Below, piece after piece: positions 1,596 through 12,726 of a DNA stretch of 12,726 nucleotides. Every line of letters begins with the position of its first letter. The stretch's first letter is position 1. Below the pieces are notes generated by a model. That model did no database searches and was not told the DNA's origin. It saw only the letters and a program-made list of their open reading frames with translations. This DNA is from a virus (lineage: Duplodnaviria; Heunggongvirae; Uroviricota; Caudoviricetes). A program made the translations under genes and the position numbers. The stretch lies in the IMG/VR virus record IMGVR_UViG_3300014846_000084; one strand, given 5' to 3'.

Positions 1596-1784
1596 GTGTT
1601 AAGCACAGATCGCTTTATACGTGAAAAAGAATGTCAGCAACTTACAGGCCTGAGCCGCTCATGTCGGTACCGCCTGGAAAAAGCCGGACAATTCCCATCA
1701 CGGCGTAAGCTGGGCGGTCGTTCCGTTGGCTGGTCTTTATCCGAAGTTCTGGCATGGAAGGACAGCTGCGAGGCAGTTCACTAA
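1596..1784 (+). CDS. alpA: AlpA-family (Vis/excisionase-like) HTH transcriptional regulator, 62 aa, GTG start
   Basis: Translation LTGLSRSCRYRLEKAGQFP...GWSLSEVLAWK matches the AlpA/MerR-like winged HTH pattern. Strong SD (AAAGGGGGA) 5 to 8 nt upstream of the GTG at 1596. Confidence 0.85.
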   Translation: MLSTDRFIREKECQQLTGLSRSCRYRLEKAGQFPSRRKLGGRSVGWSLSEVLAWKDSCEAVH

Positions 1785-1836: not shown

Positions 1837-3039
1837 ATGAATACTGGATATTCTCCCGAACAAGGGCGGGGCTTCGTTCGTCCTGAAAAACAGAATCTGC
1901 AAAATTTTGCCGAAATTATTCCGGTTATTTCCGGCCTTACTGGCGGGAGTGAAACCAATATTGTTAACGCCAGAGCGTTGCAGATGTTTGATGATAAAAA
2001 GGGAGTAAATTTAACTTACACCCCTGACGGCAATCAGAATATGAGCATTATCTCTGAGTCAGGTTTCTACAAACTAATAAAAACAAAAAGCGCCCCGTTG
2101 CCGGAGCGCCTTTGTGAACAATTAACCTACTGCGCAAAAAATGAATCTGAGCAGTGGGATTATATCAACCATGTGGAGAAGCGCCACAATTGCCGAATAA
2201 CGGGCAAAACAAAGGCCACCCGCTACGGTGGCCCCTCGACACAAGCTACACGTTATCCCCAACGCATGAGCATTGCCAACAATGCCACATTTGCGGCTGG
2301 TGGGCAATGCAATCAGTCTGGTTCAGTTCGTTGCCATACCTGCAATGAGCGCTTTTCCCTGTACTCTTTAAGGAATTGCTCAAGGGCAAAAGCACATGGC
2401 GCGAATCTTTCTGATTCATGCTCTATCTTTCTGCGCCGTCTTTTCCGTGCCGGTGATAATGTTTTGGTCAATTCTTTATCGGTCATTGTGTTGTCCTGCA
2501 TAGCAATGCGCCGTAATACCTTACACCACGGCGCTGATGGTGATTACTCTGGTTCTTTGGTCTTGCGGCGCTGGAGTTCTTCACGTGCGACAGTGACGAG
2601 CTGCCCGATCTCCTCGGCGGCTTTGATTCCGAGTTTTTCCACCTGCGCCAGTGCATCGAGCGAAGAAACTAGGGGATTTTCTCCACTTCCTTCTGCCTGG
2701 CGCCGGGCGATCTCACCGCGTACAGCCGTAACTATAAAATTCGCTTTAGTTTCCCCTGGCTGTAGGGATGCCTCAATGCCACTCACTACTTCATGTGGAA
2801 ATCTGGCATTCAGTTGCTGTGACTTATTGTTAACAGAACTCCTGGACATGTTTGCACCTCCCATTAATAACGGGATGCAGTGTAATACAAAAGTGAATAC
2901 CAAAAAAGACTTGAAATGGTATTCACCTAAATGTAATGTGAATACCACAAGTGCTGATACATGCAATTCAGCAATTGAAACGACGAAGCCCCGCACTGTT
3001 GGAGCAGTAACGGGGCTTCTAACCAACAACGTAAACTAG
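1837..3039 (+). CDS. Hypothetical ORF with a Bro-N/KilA-N-like segment in the first ~110 aa. The 3' boundary is uncertain: the open frame runs 400 codons, but the distal two thirds look like non-coding antisense of the minus-strand regulator gene. Possible pseudogene or mis-extended ORF.
   Basis: N-terminal translation contains KGVNLTYTPDGNQNMSIISESGFYKLIKTKS, which resembles the conserved Bro-N core. From about residue 150 the composition turns S/C/R-rich and overlaps a well-supported gene on the opposite strand. Weak SD before the ATG at 1837. Confidence 0.3.
   Translation: MNTGYSPEQGRGFVRPEKQNLQNFAEIIPVISGLTGGSETNIVNARALQMFDDKKGVNLTYTPDGNQNMSIISESGFYKLIKTKSAPLPERLCEQLTYCAKNESEQWDYINHVEKRHNCRITGKTKATRYGGPSTQATRYPQRMSIANNATFAAGGQCNQSGSVRCHTCNERFSLYSLRNCSRAKAHGANLSDSCSIFLRRLFRAGDNVLVNSLSVIVLSCIAMRRNTLHHGADGDYSGSLVLRRWSSSRATVTSCPISSAALIPSFSTCASASSEETRGFSPLPSAWRRAISPRTAVTIKFALVSPGCRDASMPLTTSCGNLAFSCCDLLLTELLDMFAPPINNGMQCNTKVNTKKDLKWYSPKCNVNTTSADTCNSAIETTKPRTVGAVTGLLTNNVN
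2313..2486 (-). CDS. Possible small basic protein (57 aa, MTDKELTKTLSPARKRRRRK...), downstream of the RHH gene on the minus strand
   Basis: ORF in the track (2313..2501) trimmed to the second ATG, which has an AGGA about 8 nt upstream. Composition is protein-like but there is no recognisable family. Overlaps the open + frame of the preceding feature. Confidence 0.2.
   Translation of the reverse strand: MTDKELTKTLSPARKRRRRKIEHESERFAPCAFALEQFLKEYREKRSLQVWQRTEPD
2544..2849 (-). CDS. Ribbon-helix-helix (Arc/MetJ-like) DNA-binding regulator, about 101 aa; candidate island repressor
   Basis: Track ORF 2544..3029 trimmed to the internal ATG at 2849, which has a strong SD (GGGAGGTG) 5 nt upstream. 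N-terminal segment LNARFPHEVVSGIEASLQPGETKANFIVTAVRGEI fits an RHH beta-strand/helix pattern. Transcribed divergently from the downstream operon. Confidence 0.7.
   Translation of the reverse strand: MSRSSVNNKSQQLNARFPHEVVSGIEASLQPGETKANFIVTAVRGEIARRQAEGSGENPLVSSLDALAQVEKLGIKAAEEIGQLVTVAREELQRRKTKEPE
2893..2947. promoter_or_regulatory. Operator-like triple repeat GTGAATACCA (direct 2893-2902, inverted 2918-2927, direct 2938-2947) in the divergent intergenic region between the RHH gene and the 3048 operon
   Basis: Three exact copies of a 10-mer in alternating orientation, within about 55 bp, lying between two divergent start codons (2849 minus, 3048 plus). Confidence 0.5.
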
Positions 3040-3047
3040 GAGCCGTT

Positions 3048-3248
3048 ATGGTTGCCGTAAATCATATACCACACCTTGTACACACACAAACGGCCTTTGT
3101 GTGGCGTTTTCTGGCACTGAGTGCCGGAGAATCTCAAATCATCCACGTAACCGCCTGGACGGAACGCGAAGCGCGTAGCCGTTGCCCGTCAGGTTGTGTT
3201 GCTGTATTTGCCGCTCGTATTCGTCAGGGGAAAACCTATGCACAATAA
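3048..3248 (+). CDS. Hypothetical small protein (66 aa), first gene of a coupled operon leading to the primase
   Basis: AGGAG SD at 3038-3042, 5 nt before the ATG. Stop overlaps the start of the next ORF. Confidence 0.5.
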   Translation: MVAVNHIPHLVHTQTAFVWRFLALSAGESQIIHVTAWTEREARSRCPSGCVAVFAARIRQGKTYAQ

Positions 3249-3477
3249 AACCACACCGGACGCAGCAGCCGCCGCGCTCACTACGCTGATGCACGCGCTT
3301 ATTGATATTTCTGTTATTGCTGACAGGGCGCATAAGCACGCCACCAGTGAAACAGAATATGCCGGGGCTTTCGTTCCTCATTCGCTGGCGGTTATGCAAC
3401 TTAGTGCGGATATGGCGCTGAATGAGGCCAAAGCCATCCTGATTGCTGATTGTGAAAATGGGGGGGGTTATGCGTGA
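3238..3477 (+). CDS. Hypothetical small protein (79 aa, MHNKTTPDAAAAALTT...)
   Basis: Track ORF 3196..3477 trimmed to the ATG at 3238, which overlaps the upstream stop and has AGGGGA upstream. Alanine/helix-rich, protein-like composition. Confidence 0.5.
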   Translation: MHNKTTPDAAAAALTTLMHALIDISVIADRAHKHATSETEYAGAFVPHSLAVMQLSADMALNEAKAILIADCENGGGYA

Positions 3478-3703
3478 TGATCGTTTTAATTCCCTGAAAC
3501 AGGAATTTTCCGACGTTCCTGATGATGCGGCTGATGCGCTTTCGTCAATGCCAGAGCTTATTAGAGCGGCTTTTTTCTTACTTTCCACGAGAGAATATAA
3601 ATCAACGGGGCTTGATGTACTGAATATCGCCGCCGATTATGCGGAATATGTGGCAGAGGCGCATTACAGAAGAAAATTTCCTGAGGATGTAAGCCATGCG
3701 TGA
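3470..3703 (+). CDS. Hypothetical small acidic protein (77 aa, MRDDRFNSLKQEF...)
   Basis: Track ORF 3443..3703 trimmed to the ATG at 3470, which overlaps the upstream stop in the motif ATGCGTGA. G-rich SD upstream. Confidence 0.55.
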   Translation: MRDDRFNSLKQEFSDVPDDAADALSSMPELIRAAFFLLSTREYKSTGLDVLNIAADYAEYVAEAHYRRKFPEDVSHA

Positions 3704-3929
3704 TATTTACCACGAAACAATAGACCGCGCATTTCTTGCACTTTCTCACAGTGAAAACATGCTGGAAATATTGCGCATATGGCTTGAAACACTTGGCGAC
3801 AATGAACGCGACAAACAAAAATCAAGAATTGCCACGGCATTAATAACGCTTCTTGATCCTGTAATAATGGAACTGCAAGAAATAGATCTATTGCACGACA
3901 GATATAAAGAACAGCACACCGGAGAATAA
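3696..3929 (+). CDS. Hypothetical small protein (77 aa, MRDIYHETIDRAF...)
   Basis: ATG at 3696 overlaps the upstream stop in the same ATGCGTGA arrangement. GAGGA SD at about 3682. Confidence 0.55.
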   Translation: MRDIYHETIDRAFLALSHSENMLEILRIWLETLGDNERDKQKSRIATALITLLDPVIMELQEIDLLHDRYKEQHTGE

Positions 3930-3934
3930 AAATA

Positions 3935-4234
3935 ATGAAACTTAAATATTCTGGCTTAACTGCCAGTGGCAACACTCACCCTAAATTTACGCGCGGTGAT
4001 ATTTACCGCGACCAGTACGGCGGCACGGTAATGATTAAGGGCGTGGAGGAACGTCGCGTAACTTACCGCCGTGAAGGCTACGAATATGATTGCGTGATGC
4101 CTGTTTATCAGTTCGACCGTGATTTTTCTCTTGTGCAGGCCGTACCGCGTAACGTGCCCACCAGCAGGGAGAAAGCACGCGCCAATATTCAGAAGATGAA
4201 AACCATGATTAACGGATTCAGGGGTAAAAAATGA
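3935..4234 (+). CDS. Hypothetical protein (99 aa), translationally coupled to the primase gene (ATGA overlap)
   Basis: Track ORF with GGAGA SD upstream. Its stop overlaps the primase ATG at 4231. Confidence 0.6.
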   Translation: MKLKYSGLTASGNTHPKFTRGDIYRDQYGGTVMIKGVEERRVTYRREGYEYDCVMPVYQFDRDFSLVQAVPRNVPTSREKARANIQKMKTMINGFRGKK

Positions 4235-5985
4235 AACTGGCACCGAACGTAAAACAGCAGTCACGCGGCATAAAACACAAAGAAACAGAAGTCATTATTT
4301 TTGCGGGTAGTGATGCCTGGTCACACGCAAAACAATGGCAGGAACATGACGCGCGTATGGCCGGAGATAATGAGCCTCCTGTGTGGCTTGGGGAGCAGCA
4401 GTTATCCGAACTGGATAAGCTGCAAATTGTGCCGGAAGGCAGAAAATGCGTACGAATATTCAGGGCCGGACATCTTGCGCCAGTAATGATAAAGGCGATT
4501 GGTCAGAAGCTGGCGGCGGCTGGCGTACAGGATGCAAATTTTTATCCTGAGGGTATGCACGGCCAGGAGGTGCAGAACTGGCGCGAATATCTGGCCCGTG
4601 AGCGACAGAATCTTTCTGATGGTCTGGTCATTGAGCTTCCGGTAAAGCAAAAGGCGCAACTTTCTCAGATGGCGGACAGTGAGCGCGCGCAGCTGCTTTC
4701 CGGGCGCTTTGATGGCGTTTGCGTGCATCCTGAAAGTGAAATCGTCCACGTCTGGCGCGGCGGGGGATGGTGTCCGGTCAGCACAATGGAACTGAGCCGC
4801 GAAATGGTGGCGATCTATTCAGAGCACAGGGCCACTTTCAGCAAGCGCGTAATCAATAACGCCGTGGAAGCGTTAAAAGTTATTGCCGAACCAATGGGCG
4901 AGCCGTCCGGTGATTTACTGCCGTTCGCCAATGGTGCGCTTGACCTGAAAACGGGGGAATTTTACCCGCACACGCCGGAGAACTGGATCACCACGCACAA
5001 CGGCATTGAGTACACGCCACCAGCACCAGGGGAGAACATCCGCGATAACGCGCCAAACTTTCATAAATGGCTTGAGCACGCAGCCGGAAAAGACCCGCGC
5101 AAGATGATGCGTATATGTGCCGCGCTGTACATGATTATGGCGAACCGGTACGACTGGCAGATGTTTATTGAGGCCACCGGAGATGGCGGGAGCGGTAAAA
5201 GTACATTCACGCACATAGCCAGCCTTCTGGCAGGGAAACAGAACACGGTAAGCGCTGAAATGACATCGCTTGATGATGCTGGTGGACGTGCGCAGGTTGT
5301 CGGGAGTCGTCTTATCGTCCTGGCTGACCAGCCGAAATATACAGGCGAAGGAACGGGCATCAAGAAAATCACGGGCGGTGACCCTGTGGAAATTAACCCG
5401 AAATACGAAAAGCGTTTCACGGCTGTAATCAGAGCGGTGGTGCTGGCGACCAACAATAACCCGATGATATTCACCGAACGGGCCGGAGGTGTGGCACGTC
5501 GTCGCGTGATTTTCCGTTTCGACAATATCGTCAGTGAGGCCGAAAAAGACAGGGAGCTACCGGAAAAGATTGCGGCTGAAATCCCTGTCATTATCCGCCG
5601 ATTGCTGGCGAACTTTACCGACCCTGAGAAGGCACGGGCTTTACTACTGGAACAGCGTGACGGTGATGAAGCTCTGGCAATAAAGCAACAGACGGATCCG
5701 GTTATTGAGTTTTGCCAGTTCCTGAATTTTCTGGAGGAAGCACGCGGCCTGATGATGGGCGGCGGTGGCGATTCAGTGAAGTACACGACCAGAAACAGCC
5801 TTTACCGCGTCTATCTGGCGTTTATGGCGTACGCAGGCAGGAGCAAACCGCTAAACGTAAATGACTTTGGCAAGGCTATGAAGCCAGCCGCGAAAGTTTA
5901 CGGACATGAATATATTACGCGGAAAGTTAAGGGAGTAACGCAGACTAACGCAATAACAACAGACGATTGCGACGCGTTTTTATAA
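4231..5985 (+). CDS. Phage/plasmid primase-helicase, P4 alpha-like (D5_N plus P-loop NTPase C-terminal region), 584 aa; probable replication initiator of the island
   Basis: Walker A reads EATGDGGSGKST and a Walker-B-like RLIVLADQ follows. Overall size and layout match P4-family primase C-terminal domain proteins. The iteron array starts directly after the stop. Confidence 0.88.
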   Translation: MKLAPNVKQQSRGIKHKETEVIIFAGSDAWSHAKQWQEHDARMAGDNEPPVWLGEQQLSELDKLQIVPEGRKCVRIFRAGHLAPVMIKAIGQKLAAAGVQDANFYPEGMHGQEVQNWREYLARERQNLSDGLVIELPVKQKAQLSQMADSERAQLLSGRFDGVCVHPESEIVHVWRGGGWCPVSTMELSREMVAIYSEHRATFSKRVINNAVEALKVIAEPMGEPSGDLLPFANGALDLKTGEFYPHTPENWITTHNGIEYTPPAPGENIRDNAPNFHKWLEHAAGKDPRKMMRICAALYMIMANRYDWQMFIEATGDGGSGKSTFTHIASLLAGKQNTVSAEMTSLDDAGGRAQVVGSRLIVLADQPKYTGEGTGIKKITGGDPVEINPKYEKRFTAVIRAVVLATNNNPMIFTERAGGVARRRVIFRFDNIVSEAEKDRELPEKIAAEIPVIIRRLLANFTDPEKARALLLEQRDGDEALAIKQQTDPVIEFCQFLNFLEEARGLMMGGGGDSVKYTTRNSLYRVYLAFMAYAGRSKPLNVNDFGKAMKPAAKVYGHEYITRKVKGVTQTNAITTDDCDAFL

Positions 5986-6853: not shown

Positions 6854-7015
6854 ATGGCTATCACAGAACGCGAGGCAAGCATCATTAAGGCCATTGGCGA
6901 GGAAACAAGAGACACCATAGCGCCATTGATGGAAAAGATCGCAGAGCTTGAGACACGAATAAACAAGCTGAGTAATGAAGTTGAAGGCCTGATCTCGTTA
7001 CTCGGTGAGCAATGA
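6854..7015 (+). CDS. Small predicted coiled-coil protein (53 aa, MAITEREASIIKAIGEETRDTIAPLMEKIAELETRINKLSNEVEGLISLLGEQ); absent from the ORF track, which appears to omit ORFs under 60 aa
   Basis: Translated by hand. ATG lies 4 nt after the upstream stop, with a GAGG about 9 nt upstream. Heptad-like charged/hydrophobic pattern. Confidence 0.4.
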   Translation: MAITEREASIIKAIGEETRDTIAPLMEKIAELETRINKLSNEVEGLISLLGEQ

Positions 7016-7143
7016 CATGGGGGGGAGTGTTCCGGCCGGAAAGTCGATCTCCCTGGACACCGCCCCCCGTCTCATTCGTAGAAAATTTTGCTTTTCAAAA
7101 AAGTTACACGAAAAGTTACACCCCCTCAAAACGAGGTTTTTGC

Positions 7144-7632
7144 ATGGCATTAACGACCAAAAAAAAGCGGTTTGCTGATGCGTTATCAAGGGGCGCAAAT
7201 CCCACGGAAGCCGCTATACATGCGGGATACAGCGAAAAGACCGCAAGGGTTAAAGGCTGGCAGCTATCCAACGATCCTGAGGTGAAAAAGTATCTTAAGG
7301 CTGTAACTCCTGATGTAACTTTTCAGGTTACAAAACCGAAAAAAGTTACAAAGAAAGTTACCGAAAAAGTTACACCGGAACGGGCATCAATTAACACCAT
7401 TGAGATGATGGATAACGGCCTACCCGACCCCATCAAAGCAATGGGCAGGATACTGATTGACAACATGGACACAGATCCAAAACTGGCTTTAGATGCCGCG
7501 TTTAAGCTGGCCCAGTTCACCCACCGCAAGATCGGCAGCATTGGGAAAAAAGAGGTTAAAAAACTCAATGCCGCTAGTGTCTCCTCAAATCGGTTCCCCA
7601 TCCCTAAGCCACCAACAGGCTTAAAACACTGA
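7144..7632 (+). CDS. terS: Terminase small subunit (TerS, Terminase_2-like), 162 aa
   Basis: Track ORF 7012..7632 trimmed to the internal ATG at 7144, which has a GAGG SD. N-terminus FADALSRGANPTEAAIHAGYSEKTARVKGWQLSNDPEV matches the conserved TerS HTH signature (AGYS..TA). The upstream 44 codons of the track ORF are GC-rich, structured, non-coding-looking sequence. Confidence 0.8.
   Translation: MALTTKKKRFADALSRGANPTEAAIHAGYSEKTARVKGWQLSNDPEVKKYLKAVTPDVTFQVTKPKKVTKKVTEKVTPERASINTIEMMDNGLPDPIKAMGRILIDNMDTDPKLALDAAFKLAQFTHRKIGSIGKKEVKKLNAASVSSNRFPIPKPPTGLKH
7303..7375. repeat. Cluster of six GTTAC/GTAAC pentamer-containing repeats spaced about 12 bp apart inside terS (encoding the repetitive KVT linker); candidate pac/TerS recognition site
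   Basis: GTAAC at 7303 and 7315; GTTAC at 7328, 7345, 7357 and 7369. Two further AAAAGTTACAC copies lie just upstream of the terS start (GTTACAC at 7103-7109 and 7115-7121). Confidence 0.45.
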
Positions 7633-7643
7633 GGTAGCGAACT

Positions 7644-7805
7644 ATGAGCGAATACATCACAGACCCTATTGATGTACTCACGGAAATCATGAACGACAAG
7701 CAGCAGTCGACCGAAATACGGTTACAGGCCGCCGCTATTCTGATGCCATATTTTCACGAAACACTAAACCCGTGCTTCCAAGAGGAGGAAGAAGATGATC
7801 TGTAA
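7644..7805 (+). CDS. Small acidic protein (53 aa, MSEYITDPIDVLTEIMNDKQQSTEIRLQAAAILMPYFHETLNPCFQEEEEDDL); absent from the ORF track
   Basis: Translated by hand. ATG at 7644 lies 11 nt after the terS stop, with a GAGG about 9 nt upstream. Its 3' end overlaps the start of the capsid-like gene by 11 nt. Confidence 0.4.
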   Translation: MSEYITDPIDVLTEIMNDKQQSTEIRLQAAAILMPYFHETLNPCFQEEEEDDL

Positions 7806-9480: not shown

Positions 9481-12072
9481 TCAGAACGTCCAGACCACAC
9501 CCGCCTGAGTATTCCACGGCGATTCTACCCCTGCGCCATTGCCATAGCTGACTGACAAATGACCGCTTAACGTCGGGGTAAACGATGACCTTATACCAGC
9601 CTGATAAACGCCACTGGTTCCAGCCACATCATTATTAAATTTGCCATCGTCATTAACTTTCACCTGGTTAGAATCGGCGTATTCCTGACGCACGGCCGCT
9701 TTCAGCCAGGGTTCCAGCGTCGTACCGTTTTGCAGGTCCATGTGATAGCTTACCGCCGTTCCCGCTTCAGCGCGTAATATCCGGGTATTTCCCACATCCG
9801 CGCGCATGCCGTTTGATAACGTGTAGTCCTGACCATCTGTGGTAAAGCCGGTAAAGGCCAGATAGGGTCTAACACTCCACAATCCGTCAACCCAACGGAA
9901 CCCGCTCTCAACATGAGCACCCGCGCCGTTACTATTGTAATCGCCAAACGCTGTTGCCCCATTACTCATCTTGCCATGGATGGTGTTGGCAAAACGGTCA
10001 ACTTTCACCACCCCATCAACATAGGCACCGTTCTGATGCTCCCAACCGGCATAAGCCCCCAGGGTATAGCTATCGATATTACCTTTGCCGCCGCGATCAA
10101 AACCAATATCAGAATGAGAGTAACCAAAGATCAAGCCGCGAATTGTACTGCTTTCTTCACGGGAGAAACGGCTATCGATACCGAGCGTCAGGCCCGTCAA
10201 TGTTTGCTCAAAACCAGCTCCCGCATCAGTGGTCACGTTGTTGCGGGTGTTAATTGCCGAACTCCACATCGCCGTATCGTAACTAACGCCTTTTACGCTA
10301 CCAAGACGCTCACGCACGGTGTCCAGTTCTGCATCAAATACCAGCGGTTGTGCGGCCGCCATATTCAGCACATCAGTGGTTGAAGGGGTAATTTGCGCGC
10401 GATTCTCTGCCAGACTCCAGCTATGGTTGCCATTATCCAGCAAGGTATATTCATACGTACCGATATCAACAACGCCTCCGGCATTGCCCAACGTAAATGC
10501 AGCATCACCGCCGCCCGTTGTTACCAGTGTAAGGCTATCTCCTGCTGCCGGGCTGGCACCGGTGTCCGTCACGAATATTTTGAAATCACCTGTTGCCTGA
10601 CCGGTGACGTTGAGCTGATCGCTCTGATGATTAGCCATATCGGTACGCATATAAAAATTGCCGTTTCCCGACAGGGTATTGGTGGTCAACGTAATGAAAT
10701 TTTCCGCACTTGCCGTCACTGATGAACGAGTCACTGGCTCATCCATCATAATCACATTTGCGTCAGACATCGCAAGGTTGGCTAAGTTGAGGAGGGTGTT
10801 TTGGTTCGTCGTAGTGATATCGGCAATGATGGTCCATACGCTATTTTCGAGCGAAACGTCCGCTTTGCTGGTATCCACGGCACCATTCGTTCTAAAAGAA
10901 GCGCCCTCAGAAACCACTACCTTACCCACCAACATTGCGGGTGCATAATTTATTTGCGGCTTCATGACCTCAAGAATGCCATCATTCCCTCTGACTGAAA
11001 CGTTAACCATTGTGCCAGCCCAGACGTTAGCGCGGCCATTGTTGATAACCATATTTTCAGAGATGGCTTTTGAGGAATACGTGATACTTCCATTCTGATA
11101 TGATCGACCGAGATCATATACCGCATTTGCCTGCACTTTCGTACCAGTATCCTTTCCCAGCGATTGCATAGTGGCATGCTTATCAAGGATAGTATCAATG
11201 GCCTGCGTGTCCTCCATAACAATGAGCCCGGAACCATCATCCAGTTCATAATTTTTTGACACACCATCTTTTATACTAAATTGGCCTTTACTGTTTGGAC
11301 CACTCACTTCCAGCGCATTCGTTGAGACAATTAATTTTCCGCCTGCTTTTTTATCAACGCCAGTTACAGTCCCGCCATCCATAACCTCCAGTAAGCCGCC
11401 ACTATCTACAGTGGTATTATAAGCGAAGTCATTTTCTTCAACTCGCAAACTTCCGCCGTTTTCCAACAACATATTATTAGCAATACCATTCTTGATATCG
11501 AACTGACCGAGACGGTTTGTTCCGAATACCTCCATGGCCCGCGTGGTTGTTTTAATAGCACCGCCTGCTTTCTGATCTACCGCAAATGCAAATCCCCCCT
11601 CTTTAACCTCCAGTAGTCCTCCCTTTTCGATAGCGACAAAGACGGCCCCCCCATCTTTTTCAACGATTAAGCGCCCGCCTTTAATCGTGGTATCATTCGC
11701 TGCGCCATAAACCTGTAGCACACCATTATTGAGCGTAGTCTGGTTTGCCGCGCCACCCATTTGAACAATTTGATAACCGTCATTTAATACTGAGTATTCT
11801 GCGGCGCCATTCATTTCAATGTACTGATACCCTCCGTTAATTTCAGTATTATTACTTACACCAAATTCTTTTATATGCTGTTCTCCGCCAGGATTGATTT
11901 TCGTATTATTGGCGGTCCCATAAACCAGCTGGATATCTTTTTCCAGGACAACACCATCAACTGTCTCACCATACTCAACAGTTGATGCCAATGCTATGGG
12001 TGAATATAACGCTGTAGCCACCAGAACAGATATTGCGGAACGACAAAGAGAAACAGAACCAGATTGATGCAT
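9481..12072 (-). CDS. AIDA-I-type (type Va) autotransporter adhesin, 863 aa, with signal peptide, repeat-rich passenger and C-terminal beta-barrel translocator
   Basis: N-terminal signal-peptide-like segment (LCRSAISVLVATALYSPIALAST). Passenger region has recurring glycine-rich repeats (e.g. NTKINPGGEQ, NTEINGGYQY, IVEKDGGAVF, LEVKEGGFAF). C-terminal about 280 aa has alternating aromatic/hydrophobic beta-strand pattern and ends ...AGVVWTF, typical of autotransporter beta-domains. Confidence 0.88.
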   Translation of the reverse strand: MHQSGSVSLCRSAISVLVATALYSPIALASTVEYGETVDGVVLEKDIQLVYGTANNTKINPGGEQHIKEFGVSNNTEINGGYQYIEMNGAAEYSVLNDGYQIVQMGGAANQTTLNNGVLQVYGAANDTTIKGGRLIVEKDGGAVFVAIEKGGLLEVKEGGFAFAVDQKAGGAIKTTTRAMEVFGTNRLGQFDIKNGIANNMLLENGGSLRVEENDFAYNTTVDSGGLLEVMDGGTVTGVDKKAGGKLIVSTNALEVSGPNSKGQFSIKDGVSKNYELDDGSGLIVMEDTQAIDTILDKHATMQSLGKDTGTKVQANAVYDLGRSYQNGSITYSSKAISENMVINNGRANVWAGTMVNVSVRGNDGILEVMKPQINYAPAMLVGKVVVSEGASFRTNGAVDTSKADVSLENSVWTIIADITTTNQNTLLNLANLAMSDANVIMMDEPVTRSSVTASAENFITLTTNTLSGNGNFYMRTDMANHQSDQLNVTGQATGDFKIFVTDTGASPAAGDSLTLVTTGGGDAAFTLGNAGGVVDIGTYEYTLLDNGNHSWSLAENRAQITPSTTDVLNMAAAQPLVFDAELDTVRERLGSVKGVSYDTAMWSSAINTRNNVTTDAGAGFEQTLTGLTLGIDSRFSREESSTIRGLIFGYSHSDIGFDRGGKGNIDSYTLGAYAGWEHQNGAYVDGVVKVDRFANTIHGKMSNGATAFGDYNSNGAGAHVESGFRWVDGLWSVRPYLAFTGFTTDGQDYTLSNGMRADVGNTRILRAEAGTAVSYHMDLQNGTTLEPWLKAAVRQEYADSNQVKVNDDGKFNNDVAGTSGVYQAGIRSSFTPTLSGHLSVSYGNGAGVESPWNTQAGVVWTF

Positions 12073-12269: not shown

Positions 12270-12726
12270 TAGACTGGCCCCCTGAATCTCCAGACAACCA
12301 ATATCACTTAAATAAGTGATAGTCTTAATACTAGTTTTTAGACTAGTCATTGGAGAACAGATGATTGATGTCTTAGGGCCGGAGAAACGCAGACGGCGTA
12401 CCACACAGGAAAAGATCGCAATTGTTCAGCAGAGCTTTGAACCGGGGATGACGGTCTCCCTCGTTGCCCGGCAACATGGTGTAGCAGCCAGCCAGTTATT
12501 TCTCTGGCGTAAGCAATACCAGGAAGGAAGTCTTACTGCTGTCGCCGCCGGAGAACAGGTTGTTCCTGCCTCTGAACTTGCTGCCGCCATGAAGCAGATT
12601 AAAGAACTCCAGCGCCTGCTCGGCAAGAAAACGATGGAAAATGAACTCCTCAAAGAAGCCGTTGAATATGGACGGGCAAAAAAGTGGATAAAGCACGCGC
12701 CCTTATTGCCCGGGGATGGGGAGTAA
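12270..12726 (+). mobile_element. IS2 (IS3 family) insertion sequence, left end only; IRL begins about 12270 and the element continues beyond the window
   Basis: Sequence from about 12270 (TAGACTGGCCCCCTGAATCTCCAGACAACC...) matches my recollection of the IS2 left inverted repeat, and the downstream ORF matches IS2 orfA. Recognised from memory, not from a search. Confidence 0.8.
12361..12726 (+). CDS. insC: IS2 transposase OrfA (InsC-like HTH protein), 121 aa
   Basis: Track ORF 12316..12726 trimmed to the ATG at 12361, which has a GGAGAACAG SD-like sequence upstream. Translation [40 protein letters not shown]... is the IS2/IS3-family OrfA as I recall it. Confidence 0.88.

What the first reader, a model, noticed from the sequence alone, without database searches (positions are those of the whole stretch)
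3048..4234. Five translationally coupled small ORFs of unknown function feeding into the primase gene
Genes of 66, 79, 77, 77 and 99 aa are stacked with overlapping stop/start codons (twice via the same ATGCGTGA overlap) and end in an ATGA overlap with the primase. None has a recognisable family by eye. In satellites such small early genes often encode helper-interference, derepression-sensing or replication accessory proteins, so this is a reasonable place to look for uncharacterised activities.
Basis: inference. Interest (0 to 1): 0.5.

Follow-up and report, generated by a model that had tools for sequence, protein, structure and literature searches.

The report
Early operon of a phage satellite
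The five stacked small genes are real and conserved: they form the front of the early/replication operon of an E. coli phage-satellite island, where the first is a Kil/Icd-type cell-division inhibitor, the last is the known regulator RgdR, and the three between are orphan helical proteins, two of them halves of one protein split at a variable run of eight G's.

Summary
Five + strand genes of 66/79/77/77/99 aa run from 3048 to 4234. Their junctions are an 11-nt overlap, two ATGCGTGA overlaps, a 5-nt gap and an ATGA overlap into the replication gene. All have strong Shine-Dalgarno sites and evolve under purifying selection (median dN/dS 0.31-0.44).

"No recognisable family" is only partly right. 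ORF1 is an Icd-like protein, the same domain as the C-terminus of P4's first left-operon ORF (Kil/Eta). ORF5 is a DUF4222 protein, 84% identical to RgdR of EHEC O-island 51. ORF2, ORF3 and ORF4 remain Escherichia/Shigella-restricted orphans. ORF4 models confidently as a two-helix hairpin.

The context is an EcCICFT073/OI-51-type PICI. About 30% of complete E. coli genomes carry the module in fixed order: Icd, swappable cassettes, ORF4-type, DUF4222, then an interchangeable replication initiator. A same-architecture six-gene operon in ECOR61 reportedly causes programmed cell death, with the Icd-like protein as the likely effector.

New here: ORF2 and ORF3 are one ~154-aa protein split at a length-polymorphic G-tract (G7-G11). 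Also new are three operator-like repeats that co-vary with the divergent YlcI/YnfO gene.

Verdict: a new member of a known kind, of moderate interest.

The parts
1596..1784 (+). alpA (AlpA-family regulator/excisionase homologue), upstream context
   Evidence: Pfam Phage_AlpA 3e-18; 47% identical to P4 ORF88. AlpA is the master activator of EcCICFT073 (PMC6092414).
2544..2849 (-). Divergent YlcI/YnfO-family gene (101 aa, starting at the internal ATG of the listed 161-aa ORF); candidate ribbon-helix-helix repressor of the operon
   Evidence: NCBIfam YlcI_YnfO_N 3.1e-16; phrog_6522 matches residues 61-161; weak hit to the Rv0623-like transcription-factor family PSK_trans_fac. The repressor role is an inference from covariation with the operator repeats.
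2893..2947 (.). Three 10-nt GTGAATACCA repeats (2893-2902 direct, 2917-2926 inverted, 2938-2947 direct); putative operators
   Evidence: the repeat finder I1/I2/D1. Present only in loci whose YlcI protein has the same N-terminal sequence (W, L001, L002, L010) and absent where that N-terminus differs.
2911..2939 (+). Putative sigma-70 promoter of the operon: -35 TTGAAA (2911-2916), 17-nt spacer, -10 TAATGT (2934-2939)
   Evidence: Read from the sequence. The TTGA(A/C)N element and a TAnnnT about 17 nt downstream align across divergent intergenic regions. It was not picked up by the stricter consensus scan. Inference.
2985..3019 (+). GC-rich hairpin (GAAGCCCCG-N17-CGGGGCTTC) in the presumed leader, about 20 nt upstream of the ORF1 SD
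   Evidence: the repeat finder I4; conserved in L001, L002, L008 and L010, and kept with changes on both arms in L016, L006 and L012. Function unknown.
3048..3248 (+). ORF1, 66 aa: Icd-like / P4 Kil-type protein, first cistron of the operon
   Evidence: NF033153 6.1e-18; phrog_1743 and phrog_29966; the same models hit the P4 'cI ORF' C-terminus; alignment with P4 Kil shares F-[VI]-[WF]-x-F...E-[RQ]-x-A-R...A-A-R-[IL]; dN/dS 0.38.
3238..3477 (+). ORF2, 79 aa: orphan helical protein, the N-terminal half of a ~154-aa protein in other islands
   Evidence: phrog_2512 positions 1-76 of 154; 275 homologues, all named ones from E. coli; fused with ORF3 in L005, L007 and L015; dN/dS 0.44.
3460..3467 (+). 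G8 homopolymer at the ORF2/ORF3 junction; it also forms the SD of ORF3
   Evidence: Sequence. Tract length is 7-11 in 91 IMG/VR contigs and 7-10 in complete genomes; G7 and G10 fuse ORF2-ORF3, G8 gives the 8-nt overlap, G9 a 28-nt overlap. 7 of 11 groups with identical flanks hold more than one length. SD pairing is -10.0 kcal/mol.
3470..3703 (+). ORF3, 77 aa: orphan helical protein, the C-terminal half of the same ~154-aa protein
   Evidence: phrog_2512 positions 78-154 and phrog_24341; 108 homologues from E. coli/Shigella; dN/dS 0.31 with all pairs below 1.
3696..3929 (+). ORF4, 77 aa: conserved core orphan, an antiparallel two-helix hairpin
   Evidence: phrog_2196 6.7e-42; present in all 17 panel loci when the distant OI-51 form is counted (phrog_5796, which also hits phrog_2196 at 6e-11); AlphaFold2 pLDDT 90.7, helices 2-32 and 37-75; only 11 hits among 1.84 billion cluster representatives.
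3935..4234 (+). ORF5, 99 aa: DUF4222 protein of the RgdR family, translationally coupled (ATGA) to the replication gene
   Evidence: PF13973 3.4e-24; 83.8% identical to the protein annotated rgdR in L011; RGD at residues 20-22 and K35, as in the active ECs1581 (PMC3378721); ATGA junction to the replication gene in 16 of 16 loci; dN/dS 0.35.
4231..5985 (+). Replication initiator ('primase' of the finding): D5_N + DUF5906 + Pox_D5 domains, related to the P4 alpha helicase/ori-binding part
   Evidence: Pfam; 40% identical to P4 alpha residues 324-756 only; TIGR01613 scores 108.4 against a cutoff of 108.7.

Best explanation
The stretch is the promoter-proximal part of the early (replication) operon of an EcCICFT073/O-island-51-type phage-inducible chromosomal island. 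It is built on the same plan as the left operon of satellite P4 (AlpA/Vis, Kil/Eta, small proteins, alpha). One transcript probably starts at a sigma-70 promoter in the ylcI-ORF1 spacer and carries six cistrons whose starts lie within, or 5 nt beyond, the preceding stop. Each has its own Shine-Dalgarno site, so ribosomes pass from gene to gene and all products, including the replication initiator, are made together (shown: anatomy, SD strength, conservation, selection; inferred: a single transcript and actual coupling). ORF1 is a Kil/Icd-type small protein. By analogy with P1 Icd and P4 Kil it arrests division or kills when expressed, and as first cistron it licenses expression of what follows (inferred). 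ORF5 (RgdR family) is a small basic protein with low-specificity DNA binding. It is invariably ATGA-coupled to whichever replication initiator the island carries, so its native role is most likely an accessory of replication initiation or early regulation, and its effect on LEE is cross-talk (inferred). ORF4 is a conserved alpha-hairpin, probably a protein-binding adaptor. ORF2 and ORF3 are the two halves of one ~154-aa helical protein occupying a slot where cassettes are exchanged; they are candidates for specificity or sensing factors. In the resident state the operon is probably kept off by the divergent YlcI/YnfO-type protein binding three GTGAATACCA sites around the promoter. It would come on during induction by a helper phage. 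If an incoming phage de-represses it inappropriately, the Icd-type product would cause abortive cell death, as reported for the same architecture in ECOR61.
For: Gene reality and coupling. PICI context (int, alpA, replication gene, TerS, capsid-like gene); relatives sit between cspD and clpS or between roxA and phoQ with the same layout; EcCICFT073 is described as O-island 51-like (PMC6092414). P4 parallel: same gene order and 8-nt overlaps in P4; AlpA 47% and replication protein 40% identical; ORF1 and the P4 'cI ORF' C-terminus hit the same Icd-like model and phrog_1743; P4 Kil/Eta biology as summarised in PMC10111431. RgdR. Fixed order with swappable cassettes and interchangeable replication genes. 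ECOR61 system: Tn5 suppressors in the Icd-like gene plus genes of 186 and 192 nt with 8-nt and 1-nt overlaps, identical to the OI-51 layout in L011 and L016; all six linked genes including the primase were needed; removing the Icd-like gene abolished the effect. Operators co-varying with YlcI.
Against: No expression data exist for this locus, so the promoter, the single transcript and the coupling are all inferred. The two small genes hit by transposons in ECOR61 (phrog_3672 and phrog_1478 families) are absent from this window, which has ORF2/ORF3 in that slot, so the cell-death phenotype may not transfer. The ECOR61 sequence itself could not be fetched; its equivalence to the OI-51 layout rests on gene sizes and overlaps. 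PADLOC has no model matching any of the five proteins. In EcCICFT073 AlpA, not a repressor, was found to be the key regulator, and nothing is known about YlcI/YnfO function. The window lacks the C4/CI antisense RNA that controls Icd/Kil translation in P1 and P4, so the leader-cistron logic may differ. The RgdR link to replication is circumstantial.
Confidence: 0.7

Rival explanations
1. The six genes (ORF1-5 plus the replication gene) are primarily a dedicated anti-phage abortive-infection system of the ECOR61 type. [quoted passage not shown]
For: [quoted passage not shown] The operon architecture is the same. The variable cassette slot and mosaic identities resemble fast-evolving specificity determinants. 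EcCIMP1 also contributes to superinfection immunity.
Against: The window lacks the two small gene families hit in ECOR61. The reconstituted phenotype was described as muted. The replication gene, which is essential for the PICI life cycle, is part of the same operon, so defence is more likely a by-product of de-repression. There are no PADLOC hits.
Confidence: 0.3
2. ORF2-ORF4 are helper-manipulation factors equivalent to P4 epsilon: anti-repressors that de-repress the helper prophage, or proteins that interfere with helper development.
For: They occupy the position of epsilon, orf151 and orf106 between the Kil/Icd gene and the replication gene. A local ORF2-epsilon similarity exists (PH...D...LNE.KA, blastp E = 0.002 against 7 sequences).
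Against: Profile-profile comparison gives only 11.7% probability over 24 columns. P4 epsilon, orf151 and orf106 fall in different PHROGs. PICIs of this type are induced by their helper through AlpA and are not known to de-repress the helper.
Confidence: 0.12
3. ORF4 and ORF5, and possibly ORF2/3, are accessory subunits of the replication machinery (initiator chaperone, loader or origin-remodelling factors).
For: DUF4222 is ATGA-coupled to the replication gene in 16 of 16 loci, whatever the initiator type: primase family, RepA helicase, DUF927 or DUF5906. An ORF4-type gene always immediately precedes it. RgdR binds DNA non-specifically.
Against: If they were specific partners they should co-vary with the initiator type, yet nearly identical ORF4/ORF5 alleles sit in front of unrelated initiators. 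A cloned rgdR alone alters host transcription.
Confidence: 0.25
4. The G-tract length differences are homopolymer sequencing errors, and ORF2/ORF3 is simply one gene, or two, in all strains.
For: Homopolymers of 7-10 G are error-prone on several platforms. Many fused database proteins are singletons or partial.
Against: The fused 154-aa form carries a RefSeq WP accession and is annotated in a finished genome, and eight finished genomes, several of them O157, return the same match statistics and gene count. Lengths differing by 2-3 nt occur (7, 9, 10, 11). All three frame states are common, with 31 of 91 fused. Every state preserves an intact ORF3 start.
Confidence: 0.2
5. Some or all of the five ORFs are chance open frames, not genes.
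For: They are short, and three have no curated family.
Against: dN/dS is well below 1 for all five. All have strong SD sites. Order and junctions are conserved in about 100 loci. All have PHROG families at 1e-31 to 1e-47.
Confidence: 0.02

Closest known systems
Left (early) operon of satellite phage P4: ORF88/Vis, kil/eta ('cI ORF'), epsilon, orf151, orf106, alpha
   Same: Same order of AlpA-type gene, Icd-like first cistron, several small proteins joined by 8-nt overlaps, then the replication protein. The Icd-like domain is shared, AlpA is 47% identical and the replication protein 40% identical to alpha.
   Different: No C4/CI antisense RNA, isrK or seqA-type targets (against the positive control). 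No detectable homology of ORF2-5 to epsilon, orf151 or orf106. A divergent YlcI/YnfO gene and protein-type operators take the place of RNA immunity. The replication protein lacks the region matching alpha residues 1-323. Downstream genes are TerS and capsid-like rather than sid/delta/psu.
rgdR locus of EHEC O157:H7 O-island 51 (CP-933C); c1493 in EcCICFT073
   Same: ORF5 is a 99-aa DUF4222 protein, 83.8% identical to annotated RgdR, with RGD at 20-22 and K35. Same position, immediately before and ATGA-overlapping the replication gene, after an Icd-like gene and small ORFs.
   Different: OI-51 has phrog_3672 and phrog_1478 genes and a distant ORF4 relative (phrog_5796) where the window has ORF2/ORF3/ORF4. 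Its replication gene is DUF927-type. ORF5 has A10, R45 and D61, unlike ECs1581.
ECOR61 prophage-encoded programmed-cell-death / superinfection-exclusion system (Silas et al., bioRxiv 2023)
   Same: Six linked genes from an Icd-like gene to a DNA primase. Small genes directly follow the Icd-like gene with 8-nt and 1-nt overlaps, as in OI-51-type relatives of this window.
   Different: The ECOR61 Icd-like protein has a long N-terminal extension (122 aa). The two small genes hit by transposons belong to families absent from this window. The phenotype is untested here.
immI operon of phage P1 (c4 RNA, icd, ant)
   Same: An Icd-family small ORF is the first cistron, and downstream genes are coupled to it (NCBIfam family name; P1 biology from my own knowledge of Riedel/Heinrich/Schuster 1993 and Biere et al. 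1992, not re-read here).
   Different: No c4 RNA, and no antirepressor downstream; here the replication module follows.
Gram-negative PICIs (EcCICFT073 family; the four zones Integration, Bro, Replication, Late)
   Same: int and alpA at the left, a Bro-N remnant and Icd-like gene, a replication gene, then packaging-type late genes.
   Different: This island has a TerS homologue, which EcCICFT073 lacks. In this window the Eta/Bro-type gene is broken up by a leftward ylcI cassette, leaving a stand-alone 66-aa Icd-like ORF.

Membership tests
Icd-like cell-division inhibitor (NCBIfam NF033153; P1 Icd / P4 Kil) | Sequence match to the family model above the curated cutoff | tested here: met
   ORF1 scores 64.6 bits against a cutoff of 25, E = 6.1e-18, covering model positions 1-48 of 48. 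The P4 'cI ORF' residues 85-132 score 73.9 bits on the same model.
Icd-like cell-division inhibitor (NCBIfam NF033153; P1 Icd / P4 Kil) | Expression blocks cell division or kills the host | not testable with these tools
   Needs controlled expression with microscopy and viability counts.
RgdR / DUF4222 (Pfam PF13973) | Pfam DUF4222 domain above the gathering score | tested here: met
   ORF5 scores 84.6 bits against 27, E = 3.4e-24, model positions 1-53 of 53.
RgdR / DUF4222 (Pfam PF13973) | About 99 aa with an RGD tripeptide at residues 20-22 and K35 (residues shown to matter for activity in PMC3378721) | tested here: met
   ORF5 is 99 aa with R20-G21-D22 and K35, read from the translation. 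It is 83.8% identical to WP_000770148.1, annotated 'prophage regulator RgdR'.
RgdR / DUF4222 (Pfam PF13973) | Activates LEE1/T3SS and represses motility | not testable with these tools
   Phenotypic assay. The window shows no LEE.
Gram-negative PICI (Fillol-Salom 2018) | Integrase at one end, alpA in the same orientation, then the replication (pri-rep) gene | tested here: met
   int 1-1230, alpA 1596-1784, replication gene 4231-5985, all on the + strand.
Gram-negative PICI (Fillol-Salom 2018) | No phage tail or lysis genes; size about 10-15 kb; own att site | tested here: inconclusive
   Only TerS and a capsid-like gene were seen downstream. The right end and att sites were not defined, because an autotransporter gene and an IS follow.
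Gram-negative PICI (Fillol-Salom 2018) | Excision, replication and packaging induced by a helper phage | not testable with these tools
   Experimental.
P4-like satellite (core set: int, alpA, epsilon, alpha, sid, delta, psu; CI RNA immunity) | Epsilon homologue | tested here: not met
   hhalign of the ORF2 family against P4 epsilon gives 11.7% probability. Epsilon is in phrog_10016, which none of ORF1-5 hit.
P4-like satellite (core set: int, alpA, epsilon, alpha, sid, delta, psu; CI RNA immunity) | C4/CI antisense RNA with seqA-type targets next to the Icd/Kil gene | tested here: not met
   No Rfam hit at gathering or at E <= 10 for C4, isrK or c4-a1b1 in the window. All three were found in P4 with the same tool.
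P4-like satellite (core set: int, alpA, epsilon, alpha, sid, delta, psu; CI RNA immunity) | sid/delta/psu capsid-size module | tested here: not met
   The downstream ORFs match TerS, a major-capsid-like protein and unknown PHROGs.
ECOR61-type Icd-dependent PCD operon | Six linked genes from an Icd-like gene to the primase | tested here: met
   Window: Icd-like, ORF2, ORF3, ORF4, DUF4222, replication gene with no gap above 5 nt.
ECOR61-type Icd-dependent PCD operon | The two small genes following the Icd-like gene that were hit by suppressor insertions (186 and 192 nt) | tested here: not met
   These correspond by size and overlap to the phrog_3672 and phrog_1478 genes of L011 and L016. Neither family is present in the window.
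Simple-sequence contingency (phase-variable) locus | Homopolymer of at least 7 nt in a coding region, with length polymorphism among close relatives that changes the reading frame | tested here: met
   G8 at 3460-3467. Lengths of 7-11 occur in 91 contigs, 31 of them fused. 7 of 11 groups with identical flanks are polymorphic.
Simple-sequence contingency (phase-variable) locus | Frame change switches expression ON/OFF at measurable frequency | tested here: inconclusive
   Every tract length leaves both halves translatable (fused, or split with ORF3's own start), so the outcome is fusion or fission rather than ON/OFF. The switching rate is not measurable here.

The most novel reading that the evidence does not exclude
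The conserved G-tract between ORF2 and ORF3 is a genuinely hypermutable site, or a site of programmed frameshifting. It toggles a satellite early protein between one two-domain polypeptide and two translationally coupled subunits. This would change the stoichiometry or specificity of the proteins that gate an Icd-type toxin, giving a population-level, bet-hedging way for a PICI to vary which phages trigger its induction or its abortive response.
Probability: 0.15. Interest if true: 0.6.

Novelty: new member of a known kind. Interest (0 to 1): 0.35.

Why it matters
About 30% of complete E. coli genomes carry this module (1648 of 5426), yet three of its genes are annotated only as hypothetical. 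The connections among them do not seem to have been drawn together before: a P4 Kil-type first cistron, RgdR as the invariable partner of the replication initiator, and a published cell-death phenotype for an operon of the same architecture. If the operon does act as replication starter and Icd-based suicide trigger at once, that would explain two things. It would explain why PICI early regions keep a toxic gene at their head, and why RgdR, known only as a virulence regulator of EHEC, is found in commensals and uropathogens that lack LEE. The cassette slot and the G-tract give concrete, cheap genetic handles for testing what determines which phage switches such islands on.

Tried and rejected
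1. ORF2 as a P4 epsilon homologue: a local blastp match was not supported by hhalign (11.7%).
2. C4/CI-type antisense RNA control: no Rfam hit even at E <= 10, although the P4 control was positive.
3. The terminator-like hairpin inside ORF1 (3083-3103) as a translation-sensitive attenuator: it is lost in divergent alleles.
4. ORF2/3/4 as tandem paralogues, since ORF3 and ORF4 are both 77 aa and start with MRD: hhalign probabilities are 0.2-0.3%.
5. Known defence systems: PADLOC gave no hits.
6. Solved structures: sequence and profile searches found nothing below E = 0.1.
7. ORF4 fold: Foldseek against PDB and BFVD gave 0 hits at E <= 0.001, only generic helical hairpins. afdb50 was unavailable.
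8. Structure of a natural ORF2-ORF3 fusion (P0091): pLDDT 52.6, not usable beyond an all-alpha secondary structure.
9. Exhaustive profile search with ORF4: 11 hits and no domain fusions.
10. Antisense ORFs of 149, 103 and 102 aa: no family hits.
11. Phage genomes: no DNA match for the operon, and one weak protein match for ORF5.
12. Species-level genome scan with ORF5: only Shigella flexneri and Escherichia albertii loci were retrieved.
13. The EcCIMP1 LEE repressor is a PerC-like protein and unrelated to these genes.
Full report
OBSERVATION. The junctions are an 11-nt overlap (ATGCACAATAA), two identical 8-nt overlaps (ATGCGTGA), a 5-nt gap (TAAAAATAATG, so ORF4 and ORF5 do not overlap) and an ATGA overlap. 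All six start codons are preceded by Shine-Dalgarno sequences pairing with the anti-SD at -6.5 to -10.0 kcal/mol. The 221 other ATGs in the window average -1.95, and only 6.8% reach -6. Against 12-14 distinct alleles from related loci, Nei-Gojobori dN/dS has medians of 0.38, 0.44, 0.31, 0.36 and 0.35 for ORF1-5, with 89-100% of pairs below 1. The long antisense ORFs overlapping the region have no family support. The five ORFs are therefore real genes arranged for coupled translation.

CONTEXT. The window begins with a P4-type tyrosine integrase (1-1230) and an AlpA-family gene (1596-1784). Downstream of the replication gene lie a small-terminase homologue, a major-capsid-like gene and several unknown PHROG families, then an AIDA/pertactin autotransporter on the other strand and an IS3-type transposase fragment. 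Related E. coli loci sit between cspD and clpS (strain 042) or between roxA and phoQ, with int, an AlpA-like regulator, a leftward YlcI/YnfO gene, an Icd-like gene, three or four hypothetical genes, a DUF4222 gene and a replication gene. This is the organisation of the Gram-negative PICIs typified by EcCICFT073, which Fillol-Salom et al. equate with O-island 51 (PMC6092414), and of the Integration/Bro/Replication/Late zones described in PMC10111431. At blastn sensitivity, 1648 of 5426 complete E. coli genomes have a match to the 1.19-kb stretch, and 687 cover at least 80% of it. It has no DNA match in 50,697 phage records.

WHAT THE FIVE PROTEINS ARE. [quoted passage not shown] I fetched P4 and found that the C-terminal 48 residues of its first left-operon ORF, the old 'cI gene product', hit the same model at 73.9 bits and the same phrog_1743. 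This explains the misleading PHROG label 'transcriptional repressor'. That P4 region encodes Eta and its nested 65-aa product Kil, which kills cells and whose translation prevents premature termination of the operon (as summarised in PMC10111431; original work by Forti et al. 1999 recalled from memory). ORF1 aligns with P4 Kil over a shared motif, F-[VI]-[WF]-x-F...E-[RQ]-x-A-R...A-A-R-[IL].

ORF5 matches Pfam DUF4222 at 84.6 bits against 27. It is 83.8% identical to the O157 protein that RefSeq names 'prophage regulator RgdR'. It has the same length (99 aa) and the RGD tripeptide at 20-22 and K35 that Flockhart et al. found important (PMC3378721). RgdR activates LEE1, represses motility and binds DNA without specificity. 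Its CFT073 orthologue, c1493, lies in EcCICFT073.

ORF2, ORF3 and ORF4 match only PHROGs of unknown function. They have no Pfam, NCBIfam or PADLOC hit. They have 275, 108 and 518 database relatives, and all the named ones come from E. coli or Shigella. Profile searches of the PDB found nothing. They are not paralogues of one another. ORF4 models with high confidence (pLDDT 90.7) as an antiparallel hairpin of two long helices. That fold finds only generic coiled-coil hairpins in the PDB and BFVD. An exhaustive HMM search of 1.84 billion cluster representatives returned 11 hits and no fusions.

ARCHITECTURE ACROSS RELATIVES. In 16 annotated E. coli relatives the order never changes: Icd-like gene, optional cassettes (three further small families), ORF2, ORF3, an ORF4-type gene, DUF4222, replication gene. 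The Icd-like, ORF4-type and DUF4222 genes are present in all 17 loci. In OI-51 the gene before rgdR is a distant ORF4 relative (phrog_5796, which also hits phrog_2196 at 6e-11). ORF2/ORF3 are present in 15 of 17. The same collinearity holds in about 90 IMG/VR contigs and in a Shigella flexneri locus; an Escherichia albertii locus shows the shorter OI-51-like layout (Icd-like, phrog_3672-type gene, DUF4222, DUF927), without ORF2-ORF4. Identities are mosaic. In Nissle 1917, for example, ORF1 is 50%, ORF2 56%, ORF3 88%, ORF4 98.7% and ORF5 88.9% identical to the window, which implies exchange of cassettes at the gene boundaries.

The junction types are stereotyped: 19 ATGA, 21 eight-nucleotide overlaps (13 of them ATGCGTGA), 15 eleven-nucleotide overlaps and 15 five-nucleotide gaps. 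The gene after DUF4222 may be a primase-family protein, a RepA-type helicase, a DUF927 protein or a DUF5906 protein, yet the ATGA junction is kept in 16 of 16 loci.

COMPARISON WITH P4 AND P1. P4's left operon has the same plan: ORF88/Vis, kil/eta, epsilon, orf151, orf106, alpha, with 8-nt overlaps. AlpA and the replication protein are homologous (47%, and 40% to alpha residues 324-756). Epsilon, orf151 and orf106 belong to other PHROGs, and the one local ORF2-epsilon similarity did not survive profile-profile testing. The RNA immunity of P4 and P1 is missing. Rfam finds C4, isrK and c4-a1b1 in P4 but nothing in the window, even at E <= 10. The island is therefore not a P4-like satellite in the strict sense, though its early operon works on the same design.

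The 198-nt spacer between the leftward YlcI/YnfO gene (2544-2849, true start at the internal ATG) and ORF1 contains three copies of GTGAATACCA in direct, inverted and direct orientation. They lie around a TTGAAA-17 nt-TAATGT promoter-like element whose TTGA core aligns across divergent relatives. The repeats occur only in loci whose YlcI protein has the same N-terminal, ribbon-helix-helix-like sequence (W, L001, L002, L010), and other sequences replace them where that N-terminus differs. From this covariation I infer a repressor-operator pair controlling the operon; this is untested. A GC-rich hairpin (2985-3019) upstream of the ORF1 SD is conserved, with changes on both arms in some relatives, and its role is unknown. 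A terminator-like hairpin inside ORF1 is not conserved and was dropped.

THE G-TRACT. The ORF2/ORF3 junction lies on a G8 run (3460-3467) within an invariant context, GATTGTGAAAAT-Gn-TTATGCGTGATGATCG. Database 'fusion' proteins read ...CENGGVMRDDRF..., which is what G7 would give. In complete genomes the tract is G7 (fused 154-aa protein with its own WP accession, L005), G8 (8-nt overlap; the window, L001, L008, L013), G9 (28-nt overlap; six loci) or G10 (fused, L007). In 91 IMG/VR contigs the counts are G7 x23, G8 x35, G9 x20, G10 x4 and G11 x2, with 31 fused. In 7 of 11 groups whose 250-nt flanks are identical on both sides, more than one length occurs.

ORF2 and ORF3 are therefore the two halves of one helical protein, as phrog_2512 with its 154 positions already implies. 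The tract changes faster than its surroundings. Because the tract is also ORF3's SD (-10 kcal/mol) and ORF3 keeps its own ATG, every length still yields both halves, either fused or as two coupled products. Sequencing error cannot be excluded for individual records. The breadth of lengths and the stable WP-accessioned fused form argue that the polymorphism is real.

HOW IT MOST LIKELY WORKS. Shown: six tightly packed cistrons with strong SDs, under selection, in a fixed order, with an Icd/Kil-type first gene and an RgdR-type last gene welded to the replication initiator. Inferred: one promoter, a YlcI-type repressor, activation during helper induction (AlpA-dependent in EcCICFT073), and coupled translation delivering the small proteins and the initiator together.

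The most relevant experiment in the literature is the Silas et al. preprint. In ECOR61 a phage accessory protein (orf24) triggers cell death. Suppressor insertions fall in an Icd-like gene and in the next two genes (186 and 192 nt, with 8-nt and 1-nt overlaps). All six linked genes including a primase were needed to reconstitute the effect, and removing the Icd-like gene abolished it. Those sizes and overlaps are exactly those of the OI-51-type loci L011 and L016. I therefore conclude, by inference since the ECOR61 contig could not be fetched, that the ECOR61 system is the OI-51 version of this same operon. The same preprint found that a P4 prophage kills in response to P22 Abc1, with suppressors in alpA, the Icd-like gene, a small gene and the primase, and suggested up-regulation of kil.

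My best reading is that the operon is first of all the island's early/replication operon. Its Icd-type head gene makes inappropriate de-repression lethal, which can act as abortive defence. The window lacks the two small families hit in ECOR61, so the phenotype may differ here.

NOVELTY AND VERDICT. Three genes remain narrow orphans. The points I could not find stated in the papers read are as follows. The Icd-like gene gives PICIs and P4 a fourth homologous gene, where PMC6092414 lists three. RgdR and an ORF4-type hairpin form an invariant core ahead of interchangeable initiators. ORF2/ORF3 are fused or split by a polymorphic G-tract. The operator repeats co-vary with YlcI. Interest is moderate at 0.35: this is a useful, testable synthesis rather than a surprise.

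Noticed in passing
window 3460-3467: G8 homopolymer at the ORF2/ORF3 junction. Its length varies from 7 to 11 among relatives and decides whether ORF2 and ORF3 are one 154-aa protein or two. The flanking 12 + 20 nt are invariant even where the rest of ORF2 is only about 55% identical.
   Followed up: yes
window 2893-2947 and 2544-2849 (-): Three GTGAATACCA repeats around a promoter-like element co-vary with the N-terminal sequence of the divergent YlcI/YnfO protein. This suggests an uncharacterised repressor-operator pair in PICIs that were reported to lack a master repressor.
   Followed up: partly
window 2985-3019: A 9-bp GC-rich stem (GAAGCCCCG/CGGGGCTTC) with a 17-nt loop just upstream of the ORF1 ribosome-binding site. 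It is conserved in relatives, with changes on both arms in some, and has no U-tract, so it is not a typical terminator.
   Followed up: partly
window 1837-3039 (+): The 400-aa ORF listed here is probably not a gene. Only its first ~90 residues resemble Bro-N/antirepressor proteins. The rest is antisense to the ylcI gene and to two further leftward small ORFs (2313-2501, 2122-2307), and a strong bidirectional terminator sits at 2086-2113. It looks like the remnant of an Eta/Bro-type gene interrupted by a leftward cassette.
   Followed up: partly
window 4231-5985: The 'primase' matches P4 alpha only over alpha residues 324-756 (helicase and origin-binding part) and has D5_N/DUF5906/Pox_D5 domains. 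Its first ~140 residues match only phrog_2850. TIGR01613 scores 108.4, just under the 108.7 cutoff. Whether it has primase activity is open.
   Followed up: partly
L001, L002, L005-L007, L010-L012, L015, L016 (relatives): Nearly identical ORF4/DUF4222 genes are followed by unrelated replication initiators (primase family, RepA helicase, DUF927, DUF5906), always through an ATGA overlap. The exchange point seems to be exactly at the DUF4222 stop.
   Followed up: yes
window 3470-3477, 3696-3703 and relatives: The identical octamer ATGCGTGA forms 13 of 21 eight-nucleotide junctions between different cassette pairs across loci. It may serve as a micro-homology boundary for cassette shuffling.
   Followed up: partly
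P0070, P0229, P0042 (database proteins): Other fusion variants exist. One is an ORF3-ORF4 fusion seen on 36 contigs (P0070). Another is an ORF1-into-ORF2 read-through (P0229). A third is a deletion joining an Icd-like N-terminus to the end of ORF2 plus ORF3 (P0042).
   Followed up: no
window 7012-7805: The small-terminase homologue probably starts at the internal Met near 7144. The following 53-aa ORF (7644-7805) again matches the middle of the same TerS family (phrog_641 positions 89-125), suggesting a partial duplication or remnant.
   Followed up: no
window 9481-12072 (-) and 12316-12726 (+): An 863-aa AIDA/pertactin-type autotransporter and an IS3-family transposase orfA fragment follow the island's late genes. 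They are either cargo or mark the island boundary.
   Followed up: no
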